Shown here piece after piece: positions 41,450 to 52,570 of a DNA stretch of 64,000 nt. A program made the translations under genes and the position numbers. The DNA is taken from NCBI GenBank assembly GCA_965215505.1, contig OZ244065.1, positions 3,840,001-3,904,000 on the forward strand, in the 5' to 3' direction. The notes under the pieces are model-generated. The model searched no databases and was not told the origin of the DNA. It worked only from the letters and a program-made list of their open reading frames with translations. Each line of letters starts with the position of its first letter. Position 1 is the first letter of the stretch. This DNA comes from Capsulimonadaceae bacterium (GTDB lineage Bacteria; Armatimonadota; Armatimonadia; Armatimonadales; Capsulimonadaceae).

Positions 41450-41839
41450 GGTAGGTCCTTTCGGGTGTCTCTGCGAGAGGTATACCCACAATCCTCCCGC
41501 CGCTTCCTCTAGGCTTGCCCCCATAACGTCCGGCTGCACTTCGTTGGGGCCAGACACCTGGCAGTCGCCTACTATCCAAGCGCCGCGCCAGGTAAGTGTC
41601 TAAGGCCATGTCCCGCTAATCAAAGCCGTCCGAGGCATCCATGTCCGAGTCTTCCCAATCAGGCAGGTCAGTTAGGCGGGCCTGTTAGAGCTAAAGAGGC
41701 GGATTCTCGTGGGGGTAATGTGCGGGGTCAGTACGATGCCCGCTATTTATCCGCGTGGCGGGTGAAAACGGGTGGTGGATTAGAAATTTCCAGAGTGCGG
41801 ACGTAATCTGGCGTTCAAAGTGAAGGCAATCAAGGAGTT

Positions 41840-42289
41840 CTAATCGATGTCTGTGATATCCCTCTCCTGATAAACGACAAAGATCGGATACTCTGTTACC
41901 GCTTTCCATTCGGCATCTTCCTTTGCCTCCCGGAGCGACAGCCTAACCATGTGTTCTCCTTCACCCTTAGTAGGAAAGGAGCGACCGTTGACGCTGATAC
42001 GCCCACTGCGTAACTTCATTTCGAGTGAGTGGAAGGCTCCCCCCATTTCCTCCCCATCGGGAGATATGACGATTACGCTCTGCTCGAAGCTTTTTCCTTC
42101 ATCTTCCGGCAATTTCCACCACACGGCCACCGCAGACCAGCGAACATCAACGCTCATTTCGCCCGGCTTGCTTTCGCCAAGTGGATAATAGCCAGCGACC
42201 CCTTCCAGCAAGGACACGAGCGTCAAATTGCCGTCGGAATTGTCCTCAATCACACGGGAACACACCGCAAACAGCATGAGGTGGGGCAT
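41840..42289 (-). CDS. DUF6941-like beta-rich protein
   Basis: FAVCSRVIEDNSDGNLTLVSLL start and FPTKGEGEHMVRL end; GGGAG RBS. Confidence 0.7.
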   Translation of the reverse strand: MPHLMLFAVCSRVIEDNSDGNLTLVSLLEGVAGYYPLGESKPGEMSVDVRWSAVAVWWKLPEDEGKSFEQSVIVISPDGEEMGGAFHSLEMKLRSGRISVNGRSFPTKGEGEHMVRLSLREAKEDAEWKAVTEYPIFVVYQERDITDID

Positions 42290-42291
42290 GG

Positions 42292-42840
42292 TTAAACTCC
42301 CAAGAATTCGCGTGTACTCAAGCCATTGGGCGGCATGGCACCATAATCCGGCCTTTTCGTCTCGAACTGGTACTGCATAGTTTCCCTCGGGATATTGGGG
42401 TGGGGCGCGAATGATGACCCCGCCCCCCGGCGCATGGCTCTGCGGGGAAATGTCTTTTGGATTAGAGGAGGGGCAGCCACCTGTGGCAACTGAATCCCAT
42501 GTTTTTTCAGAGCCTGATTGATCCTCTTCCGGTGGAGAGGCCAGTCACTATTCAGCGAGACTCGATAACCCCCCTCTGCGAACCCAGCCAGTATTTCGTT
42601 CCGCATCGCAATCATCGCTTTGGATGACTGTTCAGGCAGAACGTGCGAAAGCATGCCCTCAACGGCCCACACCACGGGCGGGTCATGGTAGAGCCAGCTG
42701 TCGTAATCATCCAGCAAGGAGTTCTTACCAGTTGTTCGTTTCCATTCGAAGACACGCGGCTCTGACCAACCAAGGGTATTGAGAAAAAAGACCTTCCAAC
42801 TGTTAAGGTAGTAATATTTTTGGGCATCGTGGTTCGTCAT
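42292..42840 (-). CDS. Hypothetical protein (candidate antitoxin)
   Basis: 182 aa, spaced 2-3 nt from both neighbours; lower GC. Confidence 0.7.
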   Translation of the reverse strand: MTNHDAQKYYYLNSWKVFFLNTLGWSEPRVFEWKRTTGKNSLLDDYDSWLYHDPPVVWAVEGMLSHVLPEQSSKAMIAMRNEILAGFAEGGYRVSLNSDWPLHRKRINQALKKHGIQLPQVAAPPLIQKTFPRRAMRRGAGSSFAPHPNIPRETMQYQFETKRPDYGAMPPNGLSTREFLGV

Positions 42841-42843
42841 CGC

Positions 42844-43380
42844 TCAATCCTTTTCCTCATGCGTCAACATGACAATCTCGTGGACGTCCAAAGCGCGGGT
42901 TCCAGCGCCTTCAAACTTATATTGAAGCGGGAAGTGCGGGAGTACATCTTGACCATTGTTCCTCAGAAGTGGCCCACAAACCACTCCGTACCCAGTCTCT
43001 CCCATACGCGCATATTTTTTGTAGACGGCTGTGGCTTCTTCAGGATTAAGGATGGTCTGCCTCAACCCGTCGTAAACCCCCCGTTCGATCTTGACGTAAA
43101 CAAGGCAGGCGGTTCCGCCACGCTGCTGGGCCTTGTTCTCCGCACGCTGTATCGCTTTCTGTTTCCCCCTCTCACCATCATCTACGCAGAGCCTAAAAGT
43201 ATAAAATCCTCTGCCGAAGTCTCCCTGCCCAATGTCCTCAATCGTGTCGAAATCCGTCGGGGCAGAAGTCGCAGTTCCATGGATGAAGTAAAGCCAGTCA
43301 TCATCGCAATCATCAAATCCGTGTTGAGCTGACTTTGCTTGTTCGATTATTCTGTTCCCCGGACTGCGCTCTAGGAGCAT
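42844..43380 (-). CDS. DUF3990-like, ADP-ribosyltransferase-fold candidate; start uncertain
   Basis: FIHGT, DFGRGFYT, GYGVVCGP, LQYKF follow the DUF3990 pattern YHGS..DFG.GFY..D.V.GP..Q..F. Confidence 0.68.
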   Translation of the reverse strand: MLLERSPGNRIIEQAKSAQHGFDDCDDDWLYFIHGTATSAPTDFDTIEDIGQGDFGRGFYTFRLCVDDGERGKQKAIQRAENKAQQRGGTACLVYVKIERGVYDGLRQTILNPEEATAVYKKYARMGETGYGVVCGPLLRNNGQDVLPHFPLQYKFEGAGTRALDVHEIVMLTHEEKD

Positions 43381-43407
43381 AGTACCATCTAAGATGTAGC
43401 ATGTCAA
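43379..43407 (-). promoter_or_regulatory. sigma70 promoter with palindrome in the spacer
   Basis: TTGACA-N17-TACTAT on minus; CATCT-A-AGATG at 43386-43396. Confidence 0.6.
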
Positions 43408-43483
43408 TCATCCTGCGATGTGGTGATGGGCACGCTCCTCAGATCGTCACCCATGCCTCGGAGGCGTTTAGACGGGCCTATCG

Positions 43484-43526
43484 AAGAAAGGGGGGCAGGC
43501 CTTGAAGACCCACCCCCCAACTCTTC
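43484..43526 (-). terminator. Terminator of the porin gene
   Basis: Minus strand GGGGGGTGGGTC-TTCAA-GGCCTGCCCCCC-TTTCTT. Confidence 0.6.
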
Positions 43527-43551: not shown

Positions 43552-45279
43552 CTAGAACTTGACCTGGATCTCGCCGGTGAACAGGCCGTAGACCGGCGGC
43601 TTCGCGGTGCCGGGCGCGTGTGCCACCAGGTCCGCCCGCTCGTACCACGCCCGCAGCCGGGTGGCTTTGTCCAGGTTGTACAGCACGCCGTACCCGACGT
43701 TCTCGTCCGTATAGGTCCGGTTGCCGCCGGGGTTGAAGGCGTTCGCCTTCCCCTCGCCGCGCCGCAGGACGTCGTACTGGCCCGCCAGGGTCAGCGGGTG
43801 CGTCCCCGTCTGGCCGAAGGTGAAGCCGCCCACCACATAGTAGCCGTCCACATGGTTGTCTTTGGCATACACCGTCGAGGTCGCAAGGGCCGTCGGCGTC
43901 GCGAAGTAAGATCGCTGCTCGTACAGCCCCCCCACATACTCGGCACTCACGAACGGACCTGACGGCAGCACGATCTGCGCGTCCGCCCCGTACAACTCCT
44001 TCTTCCGCCCGGTGTAGTTCGGCCCCGTCCCGGCGAACGCGCCCCCGGCGATGTTGGCCGGGATGCCGCTCGTGTTGATCTGGCCGTAGTAGTAGGACCC
44101 GCCCACCGATACCACCTTGTTGGGCGTCTGGTACGCCACCCGGTAGATCTGGTCCTTGAAGGCGTCCGTGTCGTCGCTGGTCCGGCCCGTGCCGTTGATC
44201 AGGGCGGCGGTCAGCTTGATCCCCGCCGGCAGGAAGACGAGCTGCTGGGGCGTGTTGTAGGAGAGCTGGATGCCCTTGTCGTAGTCCTGCGTCGCGAACA
44301 GCCCCGCCCCGCTCTCCGAGAACGCCAGGGGACGCTCCGGGCTGACCGAGTTCGCCATCGAGCCGGGCAGGATGTACCCGAACGGCGTGGCGAACAGCCC
44401 CGCCGTCGCCGTCAGGTTCTTGGCCGCGTTGCCGTTGCCCAGGGTGTACGCGACGTACCCCTCGCGTACCGTCACCTGCTGGTTGGCGTTCGCCCCGCTC
44501 GTCACCGCGCCGGACGTGTCCACCTGGATCGCGTACTTGGTGTTGCCGGTCACCGCCCCCGAGAACTTCAGCCGCGCGCGCCGCACGTCGAACGTGCTGG
44601 GGCTGCTGCCCGAGAGGTAGTTGCCGTTGTAGGCGCCCGCGCCGCCGGCCACGCCTTGCGGGAACCGCGCCAGAGCGCCCTGGCCCGCCGAGGCGGCCTG
44701 GTAGCGCGCCTGGACGTAGCCGGAGATCTGGAACTTGCGGTCCGTCCCTACGCCGTAGGAGTTGTCTGCGGTCGCCTGCGCCTTGTTGGCGAGCGCCTTG
44801 GCGTCCAGGACGTCCGCCCGCAGGGCATCTATGTTGTCCTGGGCCGTCTTCAGGTTGGTCTGGATGGTGTCAAGCTCGGGCCGGAAGCGGTCCACGAGCG
44901 CCTGGATGCGGTTGAGGTCGTCCTGGGTGACGGTGCCCACGGGGGGCGTCCCGGCGGGGGCGGGAGGAGCGCCGGGCTGCTGGGCGGCGACCAGGTCGGC
45001 GACGGTGCGGAGGGCGCGGTCGAGGGCGATGGCGAACTCGTAGCGGGTCATGGGCCGCTTGCCGCCGAAGGTGCCGTCGGGGTAGCCGATGATGATGCCC
45101 TTCTTGGCGAGGTCCTGGACGGCTTCGTAGGCCCAGTGGTTGGTGGGGGTGTCCAGGAAGGGCGCGGCCTGCGCCTGCGCGGGGGGGGCCATGCCTGCGG
45201 CCAGCCCGCTGCCGATCAGCAGGGCGACCGTGGGGATCAGGACCCCGGCGGTACGGCCTTTGTTACGGAATGATGTCAT
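43552..45279 (-). CDS. SLH-domain outer-membrane porin (OmpM-like)
   Basis: Signal peptide; FLDTPTNHWAYEAV..L..GII.GYPDGTF..TRYEFA; coiled coil; beta-barrel ending GEIQVKF. Confidence 0.88.
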   Translation of the reverse strand: MTSFRNKGRTAGVLIPTVALLIGSGLAAGMAPPAQAQAAPFLDTPTNHWAYEAVQDLAKKGIIIGYPDGTFGGKRPMTRYEFAIALDRALRTVADLVAAQQPGAPPAPAGTPPVGTVTQDDLNRIQALVDRFRPELDTIQTNLKTAQDNIDALRADVLDAKALANKAQATADNSYGVGTDRKFQISGYVQARYQAASAGQGALARFPQGVAGGAGAYNGNYLSGSSPSTFDVRRARLKFSGAVTGNTKYAIQVDTSGAVTSGANANQQVTVREGYVAYTLGNGNAAKNLTATAGLFATPFGYILPGSMANSVSPERPLAFSESGAGLFATQDYDKGIQLSYNTPQQLVFLPAGIKLTAALINGTGRTSDDTDAFKDQIYRVAYQTPNKVVSVGGSYYYGQINTSGIPANIAGGAFAGTGPNYTGRKKELYGADAQIVLPSGPFVSAEYVGGLYEQRSYFATPTALATSTVYAKDNHVDGYYVVGGFTFGQTGTHPLTLAGQYDVLRRGEGKANAFNPGGNRTYTDENVGYGVLYNLDKATRLRAWYERADLVAHAPGTAKPPVYGLFTGEIQVKF

Positions 45280-45552
45280 GCGATGTCTCCTTATTCGATG
45301 CTCTACTCGATGCTGTGCCACTCGGTGAATATGAAAAGCGTTCGGACGTACTAAAGCCCATTATACAACAAGTTCCCGTATTTGCGTAGCGTTTTCTGTA
45401 GTTTTGCCGGTAAATAATATAGGTGAATAGTATGGACAGATGACACGGGATGCGCTGCGAAATGCTGAGAAGGACGGCGACGGTGCCGGGGGAACACTAG
45501 AATACCTGGCTTCTGTTGCCGGATTGTTTCGGGGGTGGGGGCTTCCTTCCGG

Positions 45553-47022
45553 TTACTCCCCGCGCGCCCGCAGCCCAAGCGCCGAGCCGAGCAGGACGCC
45601 CAGGCCCGCCCGCCGTGCGCCGGGGTCGGGTGCGCCGTGGAGGGCGAGGGCCAGGGCGATGACGCAGTCGTCGTGGCCCGCGCCCCGCGCGGCCATCGTC
45701 AGGCGGCCCGGCCCGCCCGCCCCGTACTCGAAGTTCCGCAGCTCGTGGACGAGGGCGGGGAGGGGCGGGAAGAGGAGCGTCCGGGCGGATAGGGCGACGT
45801 TCAGCCCGTCAATGAGGGTCTGCTTGCTTTCCGCGCTGAACAGGAACCGCTCCACGAGCGGGCGCGAAACGCCCTCCCCCGACTGCGCCCGGATCTCCCG
45901 GTCCAGCATGTCGGCGATCGGGTCGCCGAGGCTGCTGCCGTCGGCGAGGACCCGCCGGGGCCGAAACCTGACGATGATCCGGGCGGCGTCGGCGGCCTGC
46001 GTGTTCCAGCCGGTCGCCCGCCAGCGGCTCAGGTGGACCAGCCGGAACGGGTGATGCTCGGCGTCCAGCACGGCGACGACGGTGTAGTCCCATTTGCGGC
46101 CCCAGTCTATGCCGGCGACGTAATAGCGGCCCGGCTCGGGGACGGATTCGGCCGCCGTGCGCCCCCGGTCCAGCAGGACATCGGGCAGGTCGGCGGTGGC
46201 GGCTTCGATGTCCTCCTCGCGGAAGACCATGCCGAAGTCATCAATGAACTTCGCCTCGAACTCCTGCGCGTACAGCAGCTCGCCCATCTCATCCCGCTGC
46301 GACTGCAGCCACGCCCGGTCCAGGTGCCCGTTGTCCGCCGTCGGGCACTGGAAGGCCTGGTAGGAGACGCCGTCACCGTCCGCGTCGGCCCCGCGCCCCG
46401 CGTCGCCCAGGGCATACAGCCGGTAAAAGGCCGAGCGGCGGCCACTCGGGGAGGAGGCCAGCAGGAACTCGCCGCCCTTGTCGGCCAGCATCGGCGGCAG
46501 GACCTCGCACAGCACGCGGTCCGGCACATACGCCGCCTCGTCCACGATGACCCGGTGTGCCCACAGCCCCCGCAGGTTGCGCCCGTCCCGCCCCGCCGTC
46601 CGGCACAACACCTCGGAGGCGGCCAGTTCACCCGGCCCTGTGATGGTCAGTGTCAGGTGCGGGGCGGCGCGGACGGCCACTGTCCGGCCCCGCCCGTCGG
46701 GGTCCCCCGAGGCGAAGGCCGTTTCCAGCCGGTCCCGCACCGCCTGGCCCAGAATCCGCGCCTGGGCCTCCGTGGGCGCGACGAGGAGCTGCCGGCAGGG
46801 CGGCTCCGCCAGGGCCAGCGTCGCGATGTCCACGCTCAGGCACTCCGTCTTCCCCCAGCGCCGCCCGCAGGCCGCCACCCGCACCGAAGCGCCCGCGCAG
46901 AACATTTCCCGCTGCGCCCGATGGGGACGCCACCCCCACACCCTCTCCGCCATCATCAGCCGCTCTAATGCGCTCCGTTCGCGCTCCTTTTCTGTTCGCC
47001 ACACGGGATGCCCGCTTTCCAC
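45553..47022 (-). CDS. Terminase large subunit-like protein (ATPase plus RNase H-like nuclease); start uncertain
   Basis: PHRAQ, ACGRRWGKT, VAPTEAQA, LRG, IVDEAAY, QEFEAKF, GIDWG, DYTV, HDDCVIALALA. Confidence 0.88.
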   Translation of the reverse strand: MESGHPVWRTEKERERSALERLMMAERVWGWRPHRAQREMFCAGASVRVAACGRRWGKTECLSVDIATLALAEPPCRQLLVAPTEAQARILGQAVRDRLETAFASGDPDGRGRTVAVRAAPHLTLTITGPGELAASEVLCRTAGRDGRNLRGLWAHRVIVDEAAYVPDRVLCEVLPPMLADKGGEFLLASSPSGRRSAFYRLYALGDAGRGADADGDGVSYQAFQCPTADNGHLDRAWLQSQRDEMGELLYAQEFEAKFIDDFGMVFREEDIEAATADLPDVLLDRGRTAAESVPEPGRYYVAGIDWGRKWDYTVVAVLDAEHHPFRLVHLSRWRATGWNTQAADAARIIVRFRPRRVLADGSSLGDPIADMLDREIRAQSGEGVSRPLVERFLFSAESKQTLIDGLNVALSARTLLFPPLPALVHELRNFEYGAGGPGRLTMAARGAGHDDCVIALALALHGAPDPGARRAGLGVLLGSALGLRARGE

Positions 47023-47073
47023 CCTCCATGATTACAGTATACCATAATAACAGCAGGCGGTGAATCGAGACTG

Positions 47074-47102
47074 AAAAATCCCCCGCCACTGAGCGCGGGG
47101 GT
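47074..47102 (-). terminator. Intrinsic terminator
   Basis: Minus strand CCCCCGC-GCTCAGTG-GCGGGGG-ATTTTT. Confidence 0.75.
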
Positions 47103-47490
47103 CCTGCTCCGATCTAGGCTTCTTGCCGCGATCACTGTGGCACATCATCAAGTGGGGGGAAGGGCCGCGTGGATGAGGCCGTGGAGGAGTGCGAGCGGGC
47201 GGAGTAGCGCGAGCGGGCAGGTGGGGGACGAGAGGGGGCGAGTGATTGAAATCGCTCGCTGGAAGGTGCTGCGCGCCGGGCGTCCAGGGGACGCGCAGAC
47301 AGAGGAATGATGGGAACACCCAAACGCCAGCCCCGCGCATCAATTTGCCTCTGTCGCCTTTTGCATCCCCTCCTCTCGTATCCCGGAATGCCCGGCGCGC
47401 AGAGGCCGAGCGTCAGCAGGACCAAGCCATGTTTTATTCTCATGTCAAACTCCGCTCATGGGTGCGGCAGCGTACTCACGTCGGCTGCTT
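47074..47490 (-). ncRNA. Candidate structured RNA or structured small-protein mRNA; contains ORF 47132-47443
   Basis: Bounded by a consensus promoter and a terminator; several nested inverted repeats (see findings). Confidence 0.45.
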
Positions 47491-47496
47491 AAAGGG

Positions 47497-47525
47497 ATTA
47501 TAAGATGGGTGTGCAATGTTGTCAA
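47497..47525 (-). promoter_or_regulatory. Perfect-consensus sigma70 promoter
   Basis: TTGACA-ACATTGCACACCCATCT (17 nt)-TATAAT on minus. Confidence 0.85.
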
Positions 47526-47662
47526 GTGGCGGCACAAACGACTTCCACCCGCCTGTCGGTGTCCGTGCCTGCGCCGCCCCATCGCGCCAGCGGCGAAAGC
47601 ATGGTAGAATACACTATCATCGCCCGCCGCCGTGTCCCGTGCCGCTGCGGAAAGGAGGGACT

Positions 47663-49927
47663 ATGCCTGCCACTGACGATCATTCCCATAGCCTCTCGCC
47701 CAACCCGAATTGTCTGCCGGATGCCCCCCCGCCCGCCCCCGGCGGCATGGCGGCCATCCTGGAGCGGGTCAGCGACGGCTTCCTCGCCCTCGACGCGGGC
47801 TGGCGCATCACCTACATCAACGAAAAGGCGGCGCAGGTGTTCGGGCGGCGGCGCGCGGAGCTGTTCGGCAGGGCGGTCTGGGAGGAGTTCCCGGAGGGAG
47901 TCGGGACCGAGATCTACGACGCCTATCACGAGGCGGCGCGGACCCAGCGGCCGCTCCAGATCGAATCTTTCTCCGCCGTCCACGGCCGCTGGTTCGAGTG
48001 CCGGGTCTATCCCGCGCCCGACGGCCTTTCGGTCTTCTTCCAGGACGTGACCGAACTCCGCGAGACCCGGCGGCTGCTGGAGGAGAACGAGCAGCGCTAC
48101 CGTTCGCTCTTCGAGCAGAATGCGGACGCCGTGTTCTCGTTCGACCTGGAGGGGCGGTTCGTGGACGCGAACCCCGCCTGCGAGACGGTCTCCGGGTACA
48201 GCCCGGCGGAGCTGCGCGGCACCCCTTTCCTGCCGCTCGTGGTCCCCGAGGACCGGGAGCGGACGCACGCGCTGTTCCTGAAGGTCGTGCGGGGGGCGTC
48301 GGAGCATGAGGAGATCGCCATCCGGCACAAGGGCGGCCGGCGCGTCGAGGTCAGCATCGCCAAGCTGCCCATCGTCGTAAACGGCGCGGTCGTCGGCGTC
48401 TACGGTATCGCTAAGGACGTCACCGCCCGGAACCGGGATGAGGCCGCCCTGCGCGAGAGCGAGATCTGGCTGCGCGCGGTCGCCGAGGCCGGCCCCGTCC
48501 CCATGACGATCACGCGGTGGTCGGACGGCATGGTCATCTACGCCAACCGGCACGTCCGCGCCCTGTTCGGGGTGCCGCCGGACCAGGAGGTCGTCGGCCG
48601 CTCCACCGCCCAGTTCTTCCTCTCGGCGGCGGACCGCGAGAGGCTGGTCGGGACGCTCACCGAGCATGGCCACGTCGAGGACTGGGAGTGCCGGGTGCGC
48701 CGCGCGGACGGCACGCCGTTCTGGGTCAGCGGCGCGTTCCAGCGCATGGTCTACCAGGGGGAGGAGGCCGTCTTCTCCGTCTACCACGATGTCAGCGCGC
48801 AGAAGCGGCTGCTGGACGAGGCGCGGGCGGAGGCCGAGCAGGACCCGCTGACCGGGCTGCTGAACCACCGCGCGTTCCACCGGCGTTTGGAGGAGGAGGC
48901 CGAGCGGGCGTGTCAGGAGGGCACGGCGCTCGGGATCGCCGTCCTGGACCTGGACAACTTCAAGTTCTTCAACGACACCTACGGCCACGCGGTGGGCGAC
49001 GAGGTGCTGCGCCGGGTCGCCGCCGTCCTGCGGGCCTCCTGCCGGGCTGGTGATGTCCTGGCGCGCTTCGGCGGCGATGAGTTCGCCCTGCTGCTGCCCG
49101 ATGTCGGCCCGGAGGCCACGGCGGAGGGGGTGCTGGCGGCTCTGACGGCCGGCCTCGCGGATGTCCATTACCGGCCCGGCGGTGCGGACGCCGCCATCCC
49201 CATCGGGCTGTCGGCGGGCGTCGCCCTGTTCCCCGCCGAGGCCCCGACCCGGCTCGCCGTCATGCAGATCGCCGACGAGCGCCTGCTGCGCGCCAAGAGC
49301 GGCGCGGGGGCGGGCGCCGGGGCCGAGCGGGTGCGCGGCGCGCTGCGCGACTCGGTCGCGGGCTTTTCCATGCTGGACGCCCTGGTGACGGCGGTGGACG
49401 CCAAGGACCGCTACACCCGCCGCCACTCCGAGGACGTGATGGCCCACGGCCTGGAGATCGCCGCCCGCCTGGGGCTGTCCGAGGCCGACCGGCACACCCT
49501 GGCCGTGGCCGCCCTGCTGCACGACGTTGGCAAGATCGGCGTCCCCGACCAGATCCTCCGCAAGCCGGGGCGGCTGACGGCCGAGGAGTTCGAGGCGGTC
49601 AAACTGCACCCGACGCTGGGCGCGGCCATCGTCGCCGCCGTGCCCGGCCTCGCCGCCGTCCTGGACTCGGTGCGCCACCACCACGAGCGGTGGGACGGCA
49701 TGGGCTACCCCGACGGCCTGCGCGCCGAGCAGACCCCGCCGTTCGCCCGACTGCTTGCCGTCGCCGACGCCTACTCGGCCATGACCTCCGACCGCCCCTA
49801 CCGCAAAGGCCTAACGGCGCAGGAAGCCCGGCGGCGGCTGGCTGAAGGCGCGGGGACGCAGTGGGACCCGGCCTGCGTCGAGGCGTTCCTGGCGGCTGAC
49901 ACGGGGAATGTGGGCGATGAAATCTGA
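47663..49927 (+). CDS. Triple-PAS diguanylate cyclase / HD-GYP phosphodiesterase hybrid
   Basis: Three PAS repeats; DPLTGLLN, RFGGDEF; HDVGKIG, HHERWDGMGYP; AAAGGAGG RBS. Confidence 0.93.
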   Translation: MPATDDHSHSLSPNPNCLPDAPPPAPGGMAAILERVSDGFLALDAGWRITYINEKAAQVFGRRRAELFGRAVWEEFPEGVGTEIYDAYHEAARTQRPLQIESFSAVHGRWFECRVYPAPDGLSVFFQDVTELRETRRLLEENEQRYRSLFEQNADAVFSFDLEGRFVDANPACETVSGYSPAELRGTPFLPLVVPEDRERTHALFLKVVRGASEHEEIAIRHKGGRRVEVSIAKLPIVVNGAVVGVYGIAKDVTARNRDEAALRESEIWLRAVAEAGPVPMTITRWSDGMVIYANRHVRALFGVPPDQEVVGRSTAQFFLSAADRERLVGTLTEHGHVEDWECRVRRADGTPFWVSGAFQRMVYQGEEAVFSVYHDVSAQKRLLDEARAEAEQDPLTGLLNHRAFHRRLEEEAERACQEGTALGIAVLDLDNFKFFNDTYGHAVGDEVLRRVAAVLRASCRAGDVLARFGGDEFALLLPDVGPEATAEGVLAALTAGLADVHYRPGGADAAIPIGLSAGVALFPAEAPTRLAVMQIADERLLRAKSGAGAGAGAERVRGALRDSVAGFSMLDALVTAVDAKDRYTRRHSEDVMAHGLEIAARLGLSEADRHTLAVAALLHDVGKIGVPDQILRKPGRLTAEEFEAVKLHPTLGAAIVAAVPGLAAVLDSVRHHHERWDGMGYPDGLRAEQTPPFARLLAVADAYSAMTSDRPYRKGLTAQEARRRLAEGAGTQWDPACVEAFLAADTGNVGDEI

Positions 49928-50006
49928 GCGCCACCGGCGCGTTGTCCCCGGCGCGTTGATTGAGGCCGCGAAGGGCCGCCCCGGCGGGAACCCGGCCCGG
50001 CGGGAA

Positions 50007-50166
50007 CCCGGCCCTGAAGGGCCGGTCTCCTCCCGGCTTCGCCGGTGGGCTGCCCCTTCGGGGCTTCGGATGAAACCGTTTGGCCTCGTAGGGGCGCCGC
50101 TTGCCGCGCCCTCTTATCCCCACCCGCGCCCTTCACAAAGGAGGGCGCGGCAAGCGGCGCCCCTAC
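50007..50166. repeat. Family B element with an inverted pair of GTAG-type palindromes
   Basis: CCCGGCCCTGAAGGGCCGG arm; GTAGGGGCGCCGCTTGCCGCGCCCTC (50088) and its exact reverse complement (50141-50166). Confidence 0.85.
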
Positions 50167-50195
50167 ACGTCTGACCCCCCGTCGGGTGCCACTCG

Positions 50196-50425
50196 TTGTT
50201 CCTCCTGGCGGTCACCCGGATGCGGCTCAATAAAGAGAAGACGGCCGTGGTGGTGAACGAGGCGTTGACGCTGGCTGGGGTCCCGCCGGGGGCTTTCGAG
50301 TACCGGCTCGGCAACCGGAATACATCGTGCGGCTGATGCGCTGCGTCGTCACTGTCTGCGTTGAGTCGGCGCGGCTCTTGGCGGGCCTGCCCTCCCTCCT
50401 TCCCCGGCCTGCCCTCTCCTCCTAG
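50196..50425 (+). pseudogene. Relic of a Type ISP restriction-modification C-terminal domain
   Basis: MRLNKEKTAVVVNEALTLAGVPPGAFEYRLGNR, then in another frame EYIVRLMRCVVTVCVESARLLAGLP. Confidence 0.7.
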
Positions 50426-50991
50426 CGGGCCGCCCGCCCGCCGCTCACGCCCGCGACTTTGTAGCCGCCGTCCTCCTTGACGAGCATGTAATAGGCGGGG
50501 GCCAGGCGGCCGTTCTGGCCGCGCACGGTCACGGGGACGCCCGCGAGGTTCCCCTCCGGGTTCGTCAGGACGGGGCCGAAGGAGGCTGACGCGGCGTGGC
50601 CGAACTCGGGGTACTGTGTGCCGATCATCGCGACGAAGGCCTGCCCGGAGGCGAAGTTGCCGCGCAGGCCCCGGCTCTGGTAGAACCACGCGCGGTCGCC
50701 GTCGCCCGCCCGGATCGCGGCCAATTGGTCGTTGATCGTCGCCAGGGCGGCCCGCCGCTCTGCCCCCGTCGCGACGCGCCAGGCCTTCGGGCCGGGCGGC
50801 CGGTCCGCCCCGATCGGCCCGCCTGCCCCGGTCGGCCCGCCCGCGACCTCCGGGAAGTCCGGGAGGCGGAAGGCAGGGGGTTTCGGGTGGGCCGCGATCT
50901 GCCCGCGCAGGACGAAGGCGCTCAGGCCAACGCAGAGGGCGGCGAAGAGGAAGGCGGCGGCGCGGCGGACGTTCATGCGGCGGACGTTCAT
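50422..50991 (-). CDS. DUF4864-like membrane-anchored protein
   Basis: N-terminal TM; TINDQLAAIRAGDGDRAW..S....F.S...F..MI...YP; Y.LVKEDGGYKVAGV. Confidence 0.72.
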   Translation of the reverse strand: MNVRRMNVRRAAAFLFAALCVGLSAFVLRGQIAAHPKPPAFRLPDFPEVAGGPTGAGGPIGADRPPGPKAWRVATGAERRAALATINDQLAAIRAGDGDRAWFYQSRGLRGNFASGQAFVAMIGTQYPEFGHAASASFGPVLTNPEGNLAGVPVTVRGQNGRLAPAYYMLVKEDGGYKVAGVSGGRAAR

Positions 50992-51065
50992 CGGGGAGGC
51001 TCCTGCCGTCCTATTCGCCGCGCCGCCTGGGAATCCCTTTGCACCTCGACTGGGCGGTTGAACCC

Positions 51066-51146
51066 GCAGCAACAAGGGCACGAAACCTGCCTCCGCAGAC
51101 TCGGATTCCGAACCTGCGGAGGCAGGTTTCGTGCCTTAGTTGCCGC
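51066..51146. repeat. Long inverted repeat, a distinct REPIN-like type
   Basis: 22-bp perfect core GGCACGAAACCTGCCTCCGCAG / CTGCGGAGGCAGGTTTCGTGCC within ~33-bp arms. Confidence 0.8.
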
Positions 51147-51162
51147 GACTTTGGTCGCCCGG

Positions 51163-52401
51163 TCACGCCTTGGTCAGCACGGCCTCGTTCTGGAACAGGC
51201 GCGTGGCGAGCAGCAGGGCGGCGGCGGCGTAGACCAGCGAGGCCAGGAAGGCCAGCGCGATGAAGCCGGCGTCGTAGCTGCCGCCCAGGGCCTGCTTGAT
51301 GATCAGGGCGGCGTTCAGGATGGGCACCAAAGCCAGGGTGCGCGGGACGTCCGAGTTGATCGCCATGGACATGACGGCGGGGACCATGATCAGGCTGAAG
51401 AGCGGCCCGAGCAGGGTCTGCGCCTCCTTCTGGTTGCGCGCGTAGGTGGACACGGCGAGCAGCAACCCGGCGAAGAGGGCCGACAGCGGCAGCAGGGCCA
51501 GCCCGATGACGCCGATGGCCGCCCCGCCCAGCCGGACTCCCCCTGAGGCCAGCCAGGCGTAGGCGTGCAGGCCGCTGCCGAAGGAGATGCCCAGACCGGC
51601 GATGGTCAGGATGCTGCTGATGAGGCAGACGGCCACGACCACGCCGAACTTGCCCAGCACGATGTCCCGGCGCGAGGCGGGCGAGACCAGCAGCGTCTCC
51701 AATGTCCCGCGCTCCTTCTCCCCGGCCACCTGGTCGAAGGCCGAGTAGATGGTCCCGCTGAAGGCCGAGATGATGAGCAGGTAAGGCAGCAATGAGGACA
51801 GGACCAGCAGGCCCGCGCTGCCGCCCGACTTGATCGGCGTGTCCGTGACGCGGAACGGCGCGGCGAAGCCGGGGGGCAGGCCGCGCGCCGCGACCCGCCG
51901 CGCGACGACCGCCTGGCTCACGGCGGCGAAGAGGGCGCGCAGCCGGGCGGCGGCGGCCTGCGAGCCGGTGTCCCCGGCGTCTTCCAGGATCTCGACCGGC
52001 GCGGCGTCCCCGGCCGCCAGCCGCGCCTCTAGCTCGGGCGGCAGCACGACGGCGGCGTCCAGGCGGTGCGTCCCGATCTGACGCTCGGCGTCGGCCCGCG
52101 TCGTGGGGACGAAGCGCAGGCGCGGCGCGGACCGGAGGAGGGCGGGGGCGGAGGCCGGGCCGATGACGCCGACGGCGTAGGTGTGGGCCTGCGTCTTGGC
52201 GGCCTGGCCGCTGAACAGGATTCCCATAAGGGCGAACAGGGCGGGCGTCAGCAGGAGCGGCCCGAGGACGACGGCCATGACGGTGCGGCGCTCGCGGAAG
52301 GTTTCGCGGAACTCCTTGCGGAAGATGACGCCGATCAGGCCGGCGGGCCGCGCGGTCTGGGTGCGCGCGGCTGGGGGGTGTGGAATTTGTGAGACGGTCA
52401 T
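51163..52401 (-). CDS. ABC-2 permease, NatB-like
   Basis: IFRKEFRETFRERRT, AGEKERGTLETLLVSP, ARNQKEAQ. Confidence 0.9.
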   Translation of the reverse strand: MTVSQIPHPPAARTQTARPAGLIGVIFRKEFRETFRERRTVMAVVLGPLLLTPALFALMGILFSGQAAKTQAHTYAVGVIGPASAPALLRSAPRLRFVPTTRADAERQIGTHRLDAAVVLPPELEARLAAGDAAPVEILEDAGDTGSQAAAARLRALFAAVSQAVVARRVAARGLPPGFAAPFRVTDTPIKSGGSAGLLVLSSLLPYLLIISAFSGTIYSAFDQVAGEKERGTLETLLVSPASRRDIVLGKFGVVVAVCLISSILTIAGLGISFGSGLHAYAWLASGGVRLGGAAIGVIGLALLPLSALFAGLLLAVSTYARNQKEAQTLLGPLFSLIMVPAVMSMAINSDVPRTLALVPILNAALIIKQALGGSYDAGFIALAFLASLVYAAAALLLATRLFQNEAVLTKA

Positions 52402-52434
52402 GGGTTCCTCGCCGATCCGGGCAGGGCTGATGGT

Positions 52435-52570
52435 CACGGGGCTGAACCCCCGTGCTTCGGTTAAAGCAACTCCCCGCCTCCGCGGGCATGGGAAAGAGCC
52501 AGAGGGGACAGAATCTTCGCCCTTACCCTCGGGGGCTTGCACTCTTACAGCACGGGGGTTCAGCCCCGTG
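52435..52570. repeat. Family A element between the ABC ATPase and permease genes
   Basis: 22-bp terminal inverted repeats CACGGGGCTGAACCCCCGTGCT / AGCACGGGGGTTCAGCCCCGTG. Confidence 0.88.

What the first reader, a model, noticed from the sequence alone, without database searches (positions are those of the whole stretch)
47074..47525. Perfect sigma70 promoter drives a ~415-nt heavily structured transcript that ends just before an orphan terminase
Seen: exact TTGACA-17-TATAAT (47525-47497) and a terminator (47102-47074). Between them are nested complementary pairs: 47100-47108/47415-47423 (9 bp, closes the domain), 47269-47281/47390-47402 (13 bp perfect), 47286-47294/47363-47371, 47298-47305/47348-47355 and 47308-47312/47338-47342, forming a rod. 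The rod's bulge (47372-47379) is complementary to 47228-47235 outside the rod, which is pseudoknot geometry. The apical loop (47331-47338) is complementary to the terminator 5' arm (47093-47100). A 103-aa ORF with a GGAG RBS and hydrophobic N-terminus runs through it but otherwise looks poorly protein-like. I see no tmRNA, RNase P, SRP or riboswitch hallmarks. Inference: a novel ncRNA, a fold-back-regulated small-protein mRNA, or an attenuator gating the terminase.
Basis: partly seen in the sequence, partly recalled or inferred. Interest (0 to 1): 0.75.

Follow-up and report, generated by a model that had tools for sequence, protein, structure and literature searches.

The report
REPIN remnant in a species-specific insertion
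The "heavily structured transcript" is mostly a broken copy of a common mobile hairpin repeat (a REPIN) inside a stretch of DNA found only in this species, so it is an ordinary repeat and not a new RNA; its one notable effect is that it replaced the DNA-damage switch in front of a conserved lone terminase gene.

Summary
The motifs are real. There is an exact TTGACA-17-TATAAT promoter, an intrinsic terminator, and all seven listed complementarities. The 422-nt transcript folds no better than shuffles (z -0.88) and has no Rfam match. Only the central rod is exceptional (z -2.93).

The rod is the body of a REPIN-type element. Its right end is one of 219 copies of a dispersed hairpin, 182 of them in 91 inverted doublets. 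A single-copy IS200-like tyrosine transposase gene is flanked by such doublets. The rod aligns with doublets of a relative but lacks the left terminal hairpin.

The 103-aa ORF looks non-coding by codon usage and has no homologue. It is cut to 34 codons by a 1-base indel in ~99%-identical strains.

The unit lies in ~455-485 nt of extra DNA absent from the nearest relatives. No match to its non-repeat parts was found elsewhere. It replaced an SOS-type box that precedes the terminase orthologue in 21 of 22 relatives examined.

Earlier notes of this scan describe REP/REPIN repeats in other Armatimonadota genomes. Verdict: ordinary, low interest.

The parts
47497..47525 (-). Consensus sigma70-type promoter: -35 TTGACA at 47525-47520, 17-nt spacer, -10 TATAAT at 47502-47497. 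The start of transcription near 47490 is inferred.
   Evidence: 12 of 12 positions; one of 60 perfect sites in the genome against 0.024 expected.
47132..47443 (-). 103-codon ORF with GGAG at 47453-47450. It is probably not a real 103-aa gene. At most a short (about 34-codon) leader ORF is shared with near-identical strains.
   Evidence: no family match. GC3 0.64 against 0.88; codon score -0.32, below the 1st percentile of real genes; no homologue; a +1 base at codon 21 in three other samples gives 34 codons.
47238..47402 (-). REPIN-type element lacking its left terminal hairpin. The left inner repeat CTGCGCGCCGGGC is at 47402-47390 and its partner at 47281-47269. An inner GTCCCCTGGAC hairpin module follows, and the right terminal REP hairpin is at 47259-47238.
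   Evidence: dispersed family; 95% identity over 56 nt to a copy in G022; alignment A1; z -2.93; no second REP hairpin at 4 or fewer mismatches within 1400 nt.
47186..47237 (-). C-rich tail with imperfect direct repeats. GCCCGCTCGC(GCT)ACTCC occurs at 47218-47201 and 47200-47186. CTCGCCCCC/CTCGTCCCCC words echo the 3' arm of the hairpin.
   Evidence: Read directly from the sequence. Similar tails follow many other copies. A crude count gave 127 of 402 hits against 110 of 1000 random 80-mers (the hits overlap and the inner-side control was also high).
47074..47101 (-). Intrinsic-terminator-like hairpin CCCCCGC-loop-GCGGGGG followed by ATTTTT.
47036..47064 (-). The terminase gene's own promoter. 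The TG-extended -10 (TGGTATACT) is conserved with relatives. The -35 TTCACC now comes from the inserted DNA. The SOS-type box of relatives would lie directly upstream of TTATTATGG (47050-) and is absent.
   Evidence: relatives; no box in G000.
45553..47022 (-). Lone terminase-large-subunit-like gene (exact start codon uncertain).
   Evidence: Terminase_6N and Terminase_6C; phrog_2, 2.8e-37; solved phage TerL domains, 8e-21 and 1e-14; orthologues and synteny.
47592..47613 (-). Conserved block GTGTATTCTACCATGCTTTCGCC (TGGTAGAAT on the + strand). It is the likely promoter of the divergent PAS-GGDEF-HD gene and marks the left edge of the conserved spacer.
   Evidence: alignment A2, identical core in G011 and G012.
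47051..47591 (.). Spacer of 541 nt, against 57-86 nt in G012 and G011. It holds about 455-485 nt of lineage-specific DNA containing the whole promoter-to-terminator unit.
   Evidence: non-repeat parts not found in 40 relatives or in 300 sampled phylum genomes (the two sets overlap).

Best explanation
The region is a lineage-specific insertion or replacement of about 0.45-0.5 kb in the spacer between a conserved lone terminase gene and a divergent PAS-GGDEF-HD gene.

More than half of the predicted 415-nt transcript is a REPIN-type mobile element plus its C-rich tail repeats. A REPIN is a doublet of REP palindromes, thought to be mobilised as single-stranded DNA by a RAYT-like tyrosine transposase. 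This copy has lost its left terminal hairpin. The rod exists because such elements are built as long inverted repeats in DNA, not because an RNA was selected to fold.

The element sits between a genuine-looking consensus promoter with a Shine-Dalgarno/ATG and a good intrinsic terminator. It is therefore probably transcribed (inferred, not shown) into a short species-specific RNA. That RNA is non-coding or at most encodes a short unconserved leader peptide, and it has no dedicated structured-RNA function.

Its clearest consequence is in cis (shown by comparison). It removed the GAAC-N4-GTTC SOS-type box that precedes the terminase orthologue in the other species. It placed a strong promoter plus a terminator directly upstream of the terminase's retained extended -10 promoter. 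Whether this abolishes DNA-damage control, insulates the gene or feeds read-through into it is inferred and untested.
For: Repeat identity:
- Window 47232-47261 matches up to 128 other places in the genome; the rest of the spacer matches 0-5.
- The hairpin has 219 copies at 2 or fewer mismatches. Of these, 182 lie in 91 inverted pairs spaced 100-206 nt, and 37 are single.
- One Y1 transposase gene is bracketed by doublets on both sides. It has no duplicate, and its flanking 16-mers occur 124 and 111 times.
- In 16 of 40 relatives only query positions 357-456 match, always as multi-copy repeats; the best is 95% over 56 nt.
- Alignment A1 shows the shared left inner repeat and the right arm plus hairpin, but no left terminal hairpin.

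Structure:
- Rod z -2.93; whole transcript z -0.88.
- No Rfam family.

Not coding:
- GC3 is 0.64 against 0.88. The codon score is -0.32 against a mean of 0.42, and all six frames score negative.
- No Pfam, PHROG or NCBIfam match and no homologue.
- Contigs from three other samples, ~99% identical over 1601 nt, carry one extra base behind 47381. This cuts the ORF to 34 codons.

Insertion:
- The spacer is 541 nt against 57-86 nt in G012 and G011, with conserved edges.
- Non-repeat parts were not found in 40 relatives or 300 sampled phylum genomes, which overlap, nor in phages or plasmids. Exact-pattern scans also found nothing.

Loss of the SOS box:
- The box (1 or fewer mismatches) is present before the terminase in 9 of 9 and 12 of 13 further orthologues.
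- The same motif precedes both recA genes and one lexA gene of this genome.
- There is none between window 44743 and 52443.
Against: - No RNA data exist for this organism in the runs listed, so transcription, the ends of the RNA and terminator efficiency are all unobserved.
- The promoter, Shine-Dalgarno, ATG and terminator are a complete set of gene signals. That would be an odd coincidence for pure junk.
- The unit is kept intact, with no substitution between 47166 and 48100, in three other samples. At ~99% overall identity this says little.
- The origin of the non-repeat parts (5' 90 nt, 3' 110 nt) is unexplained.
- The transposase scores as IS200 family and is below the cut-off of NCBI's RAYT model.
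- The single G that lengthens the ORF in G000 lies in a G-run and could be an assembly error, or a real difference. I could not check the source reads.
Confidence: 0.72

Rival explanations
1. A genuine species-specific small regulatory RNA, exapted from a REPIN. The strong promoter and terminator define an sRNA whose REPIN hairpin gives stability and whose single-stranded parts pair with targets.
For: The promoter is consensus, in a genome where such promoters are clearly used (60 found against 0.024 expected). The terminator is clean. The rod is a stable hairpin. Three other samples carry the unit with no substitution in the promoter, leader or REPIN.
Against: No Rfam match. The whole-molecule fold is at chance. 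No homologue beyond ~99%-identical strains, so no conservation or covariation can be shown. A Shine-Dalgarno and ATG at the 5' end are untypical of an sRNA.
Confidence: 0.1
2. A small-protein mRNA. A short hydrophobic peptide, about 34 aa in most strains and 103 aa in this assembly, is made from the ATG at 47443. The REPIN and terminator serve as a stabilising 3' UTR. The peptide could be membrane-active, as in type I toxins.
For: GGAG sits 6 nt before the ATG. The first 14 codons have a positive codon score of 0.23. The N-terminus is hydrophobic. The first 20 codons are shared with the three other samples.
Against: The ORF changes length from 103 to 34 codons between ~99%-identical strains. 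From about codon 14 it runs through a mobile repeat. Overall codon usage is non-coding. No homologue or family was found. No antisense partner was looked for, and the lipobox is not canonical (my reading of the sequence).
Confidence: 0.08
3. A transcription attenuator for the terminase. The consensus promoter is now the main driver of the terminase, and the terminator (perhaps in competition with the rod or the 8-bp loop pairing) sets how much reads through.
For: The unit points at the terminase and ends 52 nt (47073-47022) before the ORF's annotated GTG start at 47022. The ancestral SOS operator is gone, so some new form of control is plausible.
Against: The terminase keeps its own conserved extended -10 promoter downstream of the terminator. 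No anti-terminator alternative stands out: the pairing of the apical loop with the terminator arm is 8 bp, which is at chance level. There are no homologues on which to test conservation of such a switch.
Confidence: 0.1

Closest known systems
[quoted passage not shown]
   Same: A short palindromic repeat in hundreds of copies. Most copies lie in inverted doublets with a spacer that folds into a long hairpin. A single-copy HUH/Y1 transposase gene is flanked by the doublets, and its flanking 16-mers are highly abundant. Singlets are interpreted as decayed remnants.
   Different: The host is an Armatimonadota bacterium (label taken from an earlier scan note, unchecked). The units are larger two-hairpin modules. 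The transposase scores as IS200 family and is below NCBI's RAYT cut-off. The copy at this locus is truncated and sits inside a promoter-terminator unit.
REP elements as transcribed hairpins, proposed to act in transcription termination and mRNA stabilisation (abstract of PMC3733652, seen in the listing)
   Same: A REP-type hairpin lies inside a transcribed stretch just upstream of a terminator, where it could stabilise or terminate RNA.
   Different: No evidence here of any such effect. The element is not at the 3' end of a conserved gene.
Promoter- or terminator-carrying miniature repeats such as the Correia elements of Neisseria (recalled, no paper read)
   Same: A small non-autonomous repeat next to a gene changes the signals upstream of it.
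   Different: Here the promoter and terminator lie outside the repeat and have no other copy in the genome. The repeat itself carries neither.
[quoted passage not shown]
   Same: The motif upstream of the terminase orthologues, and of recA and lexA in this genome, has this form.
   Different: It is absent at this locus in G000. LexA binding in this phylum was not tested.

Membership tests
REP/REPIN repeat family | Short palindromic sequence present in high copy number | tested here: met
   219 copies of the 21-nt hairpin at 2 or fewer mismatches. 16-mers from it occur 124 times. The locus's 12-mers occur 126-128 times.
REP/REPIN repeat family | Copies mostly arranged as inverted doublets with a short spacer | tested here: met
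   182 of 219 copies form 91 (-,+) pairs spaced 100-206 nt; 37 are single.
REP/REPIN repeat family | Doublet plus spacer folds into a long hairpin | tested here: met
   At this locus the rod has z -2.93, reached by 1 of 200 shuffles. Not measured for the family at large.
REP/REPIN repeat family | This locus holds a complete doublet (both terminal REP hairpins) | tested here: not met
   Only the right hairpin (47259-47238) is present. No second hairpin at 4 or fewer mismatches within 1400 nt. The left end is unrelated sequence in alignment A1. The copy is therefore a remnant.
REP/REPIN repeat family | Extragenic location of copies genome-wide | not tested
   No gene annotation was available. 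The locus itself is intergenic.
RAYT (REP-associated tyrosine transposase) | Y1/HUH transposase domain | tested here: met
   PF01797 at 86.1 bits. An H-V-H motif is visible in the translation.
RAYT (REP-associated tyrosine transposase) | Single copy, with flanks holding highly abundant 16-mers (criteria of PMC5581495) | tested here: met
   No duplicate found; the other Y1 genes are 44% identical or less at protein level. Flanking 16-mers occur 124 and 111 times. Doublets lie on both sides.
RAYT (REP-associated tyrosine transposase) | Scores over the cut-off of NCBIfam NF047646 (REP_Tyr_transpos) | tested here: not met
   21.4 bits against a cut-off of 80. The IS200 model NF033573 scores 76.6 against 55. 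It works like a RAYT but is not filed as a member of that curated family.
Known structured RNA families (Rfam 15) | Covariance-model match | tested here: not met
   No match at gathering score in the region. The only match at E up to 10 lies outside it (E = 5).
Protein-coding gene (103-aa ORF) | Codon usage of the genome, homologues, and a frame kept among strains | tested here: not met
LexA/SOS-regulated gene (GAAC-N4-GTTC box) | Box upstream of the terminase gene | tested here: not met
   No box in window 44743-52443 at 1 or fewer mismatches. It is present in 21 of 22 same-genus orthologue loci examined.

The most novel reading that the evidence does not exclude
The insertion is an adaptive rewiring and not junk. 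A cassette carrying a REPIN replaced the LexA operator of a genus-wide conserved, DNA-damage-controlled lone terminase with a constitutive consensus promoter gated by an intrinsic terminator. The ~415-nt RNA then acts in cis as an attenuator or insulator that sets terminase expression independently of the SOS response.
Probability: 0.15. Interest if true: 0.5.

Novelty: new member of a known kind. Interest (0 to 1): 0.2.

Why it matters
For the scan, it shows that a convincing-looking 'structured RNA' in GC-rich DNA can be a mobile inverted repeat. The check is to look for other copies in the same genome.

Biologically, the element is ordinary. The comparison it prompted is of more interest. 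A terminase-large-subunit gene without visible phage neighbours is kept in fixed synteny across a whole genus behind an SOS-type box. This one species has lost that box to an insertion. That gives a natural pair of alleles for asking what a lone, damage-induced terminase does.

Tried and rejected
- Rfam at gathering and at permissive thresholds found nothing relevant.
- Pfam, PHROGs and NCBIfam on both 103-aa ORFs or the main one found nothing.
- A search of 5.8 billion proteins with the 103-aa ORF found none at E up to 0.01. Only lengths of 56-181 aa were searched.
- DNA of the non-repeat parts against 300 sampled phylum genomes gave only short GC-rich matches, best E 1e-4 and 1e-6.
- Exact patterns gave 0 hits: the 29-nt promoter in genome contigs, and the 27-nt leader and a 24-nt 3' piece in metagenome contigs. 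The tool warns that records of the same or a very near genome may be left out.
- Phage and plasmid collections in distant mode gave no match.
- Sequencing runs: no RNA holder is listed, so expression could not be examined.
- The contigs of X7 cover only parts of the stretch, and nothing was concluded from that.
- A second REP hairpin, which would make this a complete doublet, was not found.
- A lipoprotein signal was considered for the ORF's N-terminus. I set it aside because the residues before the Cys do not fit the usual lipobox as I recall it; no tool was used.
- The tandem-repeat count next to REP copies was too crude. The hit lists of the two hairpin variants overlap and the inner-side control was also high. 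It is used only as a weak descriptive note.
- One search failed on a wrong start coordinate and was repeated correctly.

Full report
**Where it lies**

The finding sits in the 640-nt divergent spacer (47023-47662) between two genes. One is a terminase-large-subunit-like ORF (45553-47022, minus strand) with Pfam Terminase_6N and 6C, PHROG phrog_2 at 2.8e-37, and matches to solved phage TerL domains. The other is a PAS-GGDEF-HD gene (47663-49927, plus strand). The window is G000:C1:3840001-3904000 of a 6.18-Mb single-contig genome of about 70% G+C. An earlier scan note calls the organism an Armatimonadota bacterium; I did not check this.

**Check of the observation**

- The scan finds TTGACA-17-TATAAT at 47525-47497 and a terminator-like hairpin at 47101-47080 followed by ATTTTT.
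- All seven complementarities exist exactly as described.
- GGAG precedes the ATG at 47443 by 6 nt, and the ORF has 103 codons.

'Heavily structured' does not survive the control. The 422-nt RNA has MFE -167.3 kcal/mol against -161.9 +/- 6.1 for dinucleotide shuffles (z -0.88), and 20 of 100 shuffles fold at least as well. It contains 11 complementary 8-mer pairs against 4.3 +/- 2.5 in shuffles (7 of 500 reach 11). Six of the 11 belong to the single 13-bp repeat. The remaining five are what shuffles give; they include the 9-bp closure, the 'pseudoknot' and the loop-terminator pairing. Only the rod (47262-47410) stands out, at -74.1 against -61.9 +/- 4.2, z -2.93, reached by 1 of 200 shuffles. 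Rfam has nothing in the region.

**What the rod is**

A search of the organism's own genome with the spacer gave 27 further matches, all to query positions 357-456. With short-word BLAST, window 47232-47261 is hit up to 128 times and 47272-47301 up to 13 times. The rest of the spacer is hit 0-5 times.

The repeat is a two-hairpin module: a GTCCCCTGGAC-type hairpin, then a GCGAGTGATTTCAATCACTCG hairpin. At 2 or fewer mismatches the second hairpin has 219 copies. Of these, 182 form 91 inverted pairs spaced 100-206 nt, and 37 are single.

Of the Y1 (HUH) transposase genes in the genome, one is bracketed on both sides by such doublets. This is G000:C1:3510948-3511397, 149 aa. It has no duplicate, and the other Y1 genes are 44% identical or less. 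The commonest 16-mers of its flanks occur 124 and 111 times. These are the features used to define REPINs and RAYTs (PMC3116915, passages read; PMC5581495, passages read). By curated models the protein scores as IS200 family (76.6 bits, cut-off 55). It is below the cut-off of NCBI's RAYT model (21.4 bits, cut-off 80). I therefore say it works like a RAYT, not that it is a member of that curated family.

**The copy at this locus**

In 16 of 40 related genomes only query positions 357-456 of the spacer match, always as multi-copy repeats. The best match is 95% identical over 56 nt, in G022. Aligned with four complete doublets of G022 (A1), the locus shares two parts:
- the left inner repeat (CTGCGCGCCGG);
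- the whole right arm with its terminal hairpin (CCGGCGCGCAGC.CCTTCCAGCGAG...CACTCG).

Where the doublets have their left terminal hairpin, the locus has unrelated sequence. That sequence holds the ATG, the first 13 codons and the Shine-Dalgarno. No second hairpin lies within 1400 nt at 4 or fewer mismatches.

The C-rich stretch after the hairpin (47237-47186) holds imperfect direct repeats that echo the hairpin's 3' arm. Similar tails follow many other copies. My count of them was crude. Together the element and its tail make up about 217 of the 415 nt.

**Coding or not**

The evidence is against a real 103-aa gene:
- GC3 is 0.64 against 0.88 in long genes.
- The codon log-likelihood is -0.32. 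Chunks of real genes of the same length have mean 0.42 and 1st percentile -0.08. All six frames are negative.
- No Pfam, PHROG or NCBIfam family matches, and there is no homologue among proteins of 56-181 aa.
- Contigs from three other samples (runs X4, X5, X6; two studies other than that of the best holders) carry the whole stretch 46500-48100. In the contig that spans it in one piece, the differences are 16 substitutions and one gap. All three samples have one extra base behind 47381.
- That indel lies at codon 21 and shortens the ORF to 34 codons.

The base lies in a G-run, so the G000 frame could also be an assembly error. I had no call left to check the source reads. A short leader peptide remains possible. 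A 103-aa protein is unlikely.

**Insertion**

The terminase has orthologues in 22 of 23 same-genus genomes (57-80% identity) and in 6 of 16 genomes of the sister family. Where the flanks were held, it sits in the order DUF4864 gene, terminase, SLH-porin. A PAS-GGDEF-HD gene is interposed in G000, G011 and G012. No portal or capsid gene lies next to it in this window.

In G011 and G012 the spacer between the conserved GGDEF-side block (GTATTCTACCA.GCTTTC) and the conserved terminase-side block (TTATTATGGTATA...GGAGGGCGGAAAGC) is 86 and 57 nt. In G000 it is 541 nt (A2). The extra 455-485 nt contain the whole promoter-to-terminator unit.

Its non-repeat parts have no match in any collection searched:
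- 40 relatives;
- 300 genomes sampled across the phylum, which partly overlap those 40, where only short GC-rich hits appeared;
- phages or plasmids;
- exact-pattern scans.

Where these parts came from is unexplained.

**What it displaced**

Directly upstream of the extended -10 promoter, the orthologues carry GAAC-N4-GTTC at 1 or fewer mismatches. It is present in 9 of 9 loci and in 12 of 13 further loci. The exception, G003:C15, is a divergent 57%-identity type. The divergent paralogues on other contigs, several of them small, have it in 1 of 5 cases.

This is the LexA-binding motif described for Gram-positive bacteria (PMC3323433, passage read). In G000 the same motif precedes both recA genes and one lexA gene. 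In G000 the box is replaced up to the very edge of the retained TTATTATGG. No box exists between window 44743 and 52443. The new -35 (TTCACC) comes from the inserted DNA.

**Mechanism**

Shown:
- the rod is REPIN-type DNA;
- the unit is lineage-specific;
- the SOS-type box is gone.

Inferred:
- The consensus promoter fires. Such promoters are clearly in use here, with 60 perfect sites against 0.024 expected.
- The RNA ends at the terminator.
- The RNA has no dedicated function.
- The terminase has lost damage control.

Rivals are a REPIN-derived sRNA, a short hydrophobic peptide, and an attenuator that feeds the terminase. I could not exclude them, because no RNA run was listed for the organism.

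**Novelty**

I found no paper holding both 'Armatimonadota' and 'REP-associated tyrosine transposase' (full-text search of the held library). Earlier notes of this scan already describe REP/REPIN-type repeats in other Armatimonadota genomes: 23 notes, 8 shown. I did not check those notes. The element is a new member of a known kind, and the finding as stated is ordinary.

Noticed in passing
window 45553-47064; loci L034-L042 and L059-L071: A terminase-large-subunit-like gene with no phage neighbours is kept in 22 of 23 same-genus genomes in fixed synteny (DUF4864 gene, terminase, SLH-porin). In 21 of 22 orthologue loci examined it sits behind a GAAC-N4-GTTC SOS-type box overlapping an extended -10 promoter. 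It may be a domesticated, DNA-damage-induced terminase. G000 is the one genome without the box.
   Followed up: partly
G000:C1:3510700-3511600 (locus L019 1100-2200): A single-copy 149-aa IS200-like Y1 transposase gene is bracketed by REP doublets on both sides. This is the likely mobiliser of the 219-copy repeat family. The copies are concentrated between about 2.6 and 4.1 Mb of the chromosome (histogram).
   Followed up: partly
many REP copies, e.g. G000:C1:296710, 393617, 1600939, 3784204: The outer flank of many REP copies carries short tandem repeats of 7-18 nt that begin with the 3' arm of the hairpin (ACTCGTCC...). They look as if the end of the element had been reiterated. I know of no described mechanism.
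   Followed up: partly
window 41500-43500: G+C drops from about 70% to about 50% over roughly 2 kb. Two ORFs there (42292-42840 and 42844-43407, minus strand) have no Pfam or PHROG match. This may be foreign DNA.
   Followed up: no
window 46746-47165: All 16 substitutions between G000 and the ~99%-identical contigs of X4 and X5 fall in this 420-nt stretch (the terminase 5' end and the 3' part of the unit). There are none in 46500-46745 or 47166-48100. The pattern looks like a recombination patch.
   Followed up: no
G000:C1:1655105, 3300290 (recA); 483472, 1658128, 4951723 (lexA-like): The genome has two full-length recA genes and three LexA-type genes.
   Followed up: no
whole genome: There are 60 perfect TTGACA-N17-TATAAT sites (85 with spacers of 16-18 nt) against 0.024 expected from base composition. 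This bacterium uses the textbook promoter consensus unusually faithfully.
   Followed up: no
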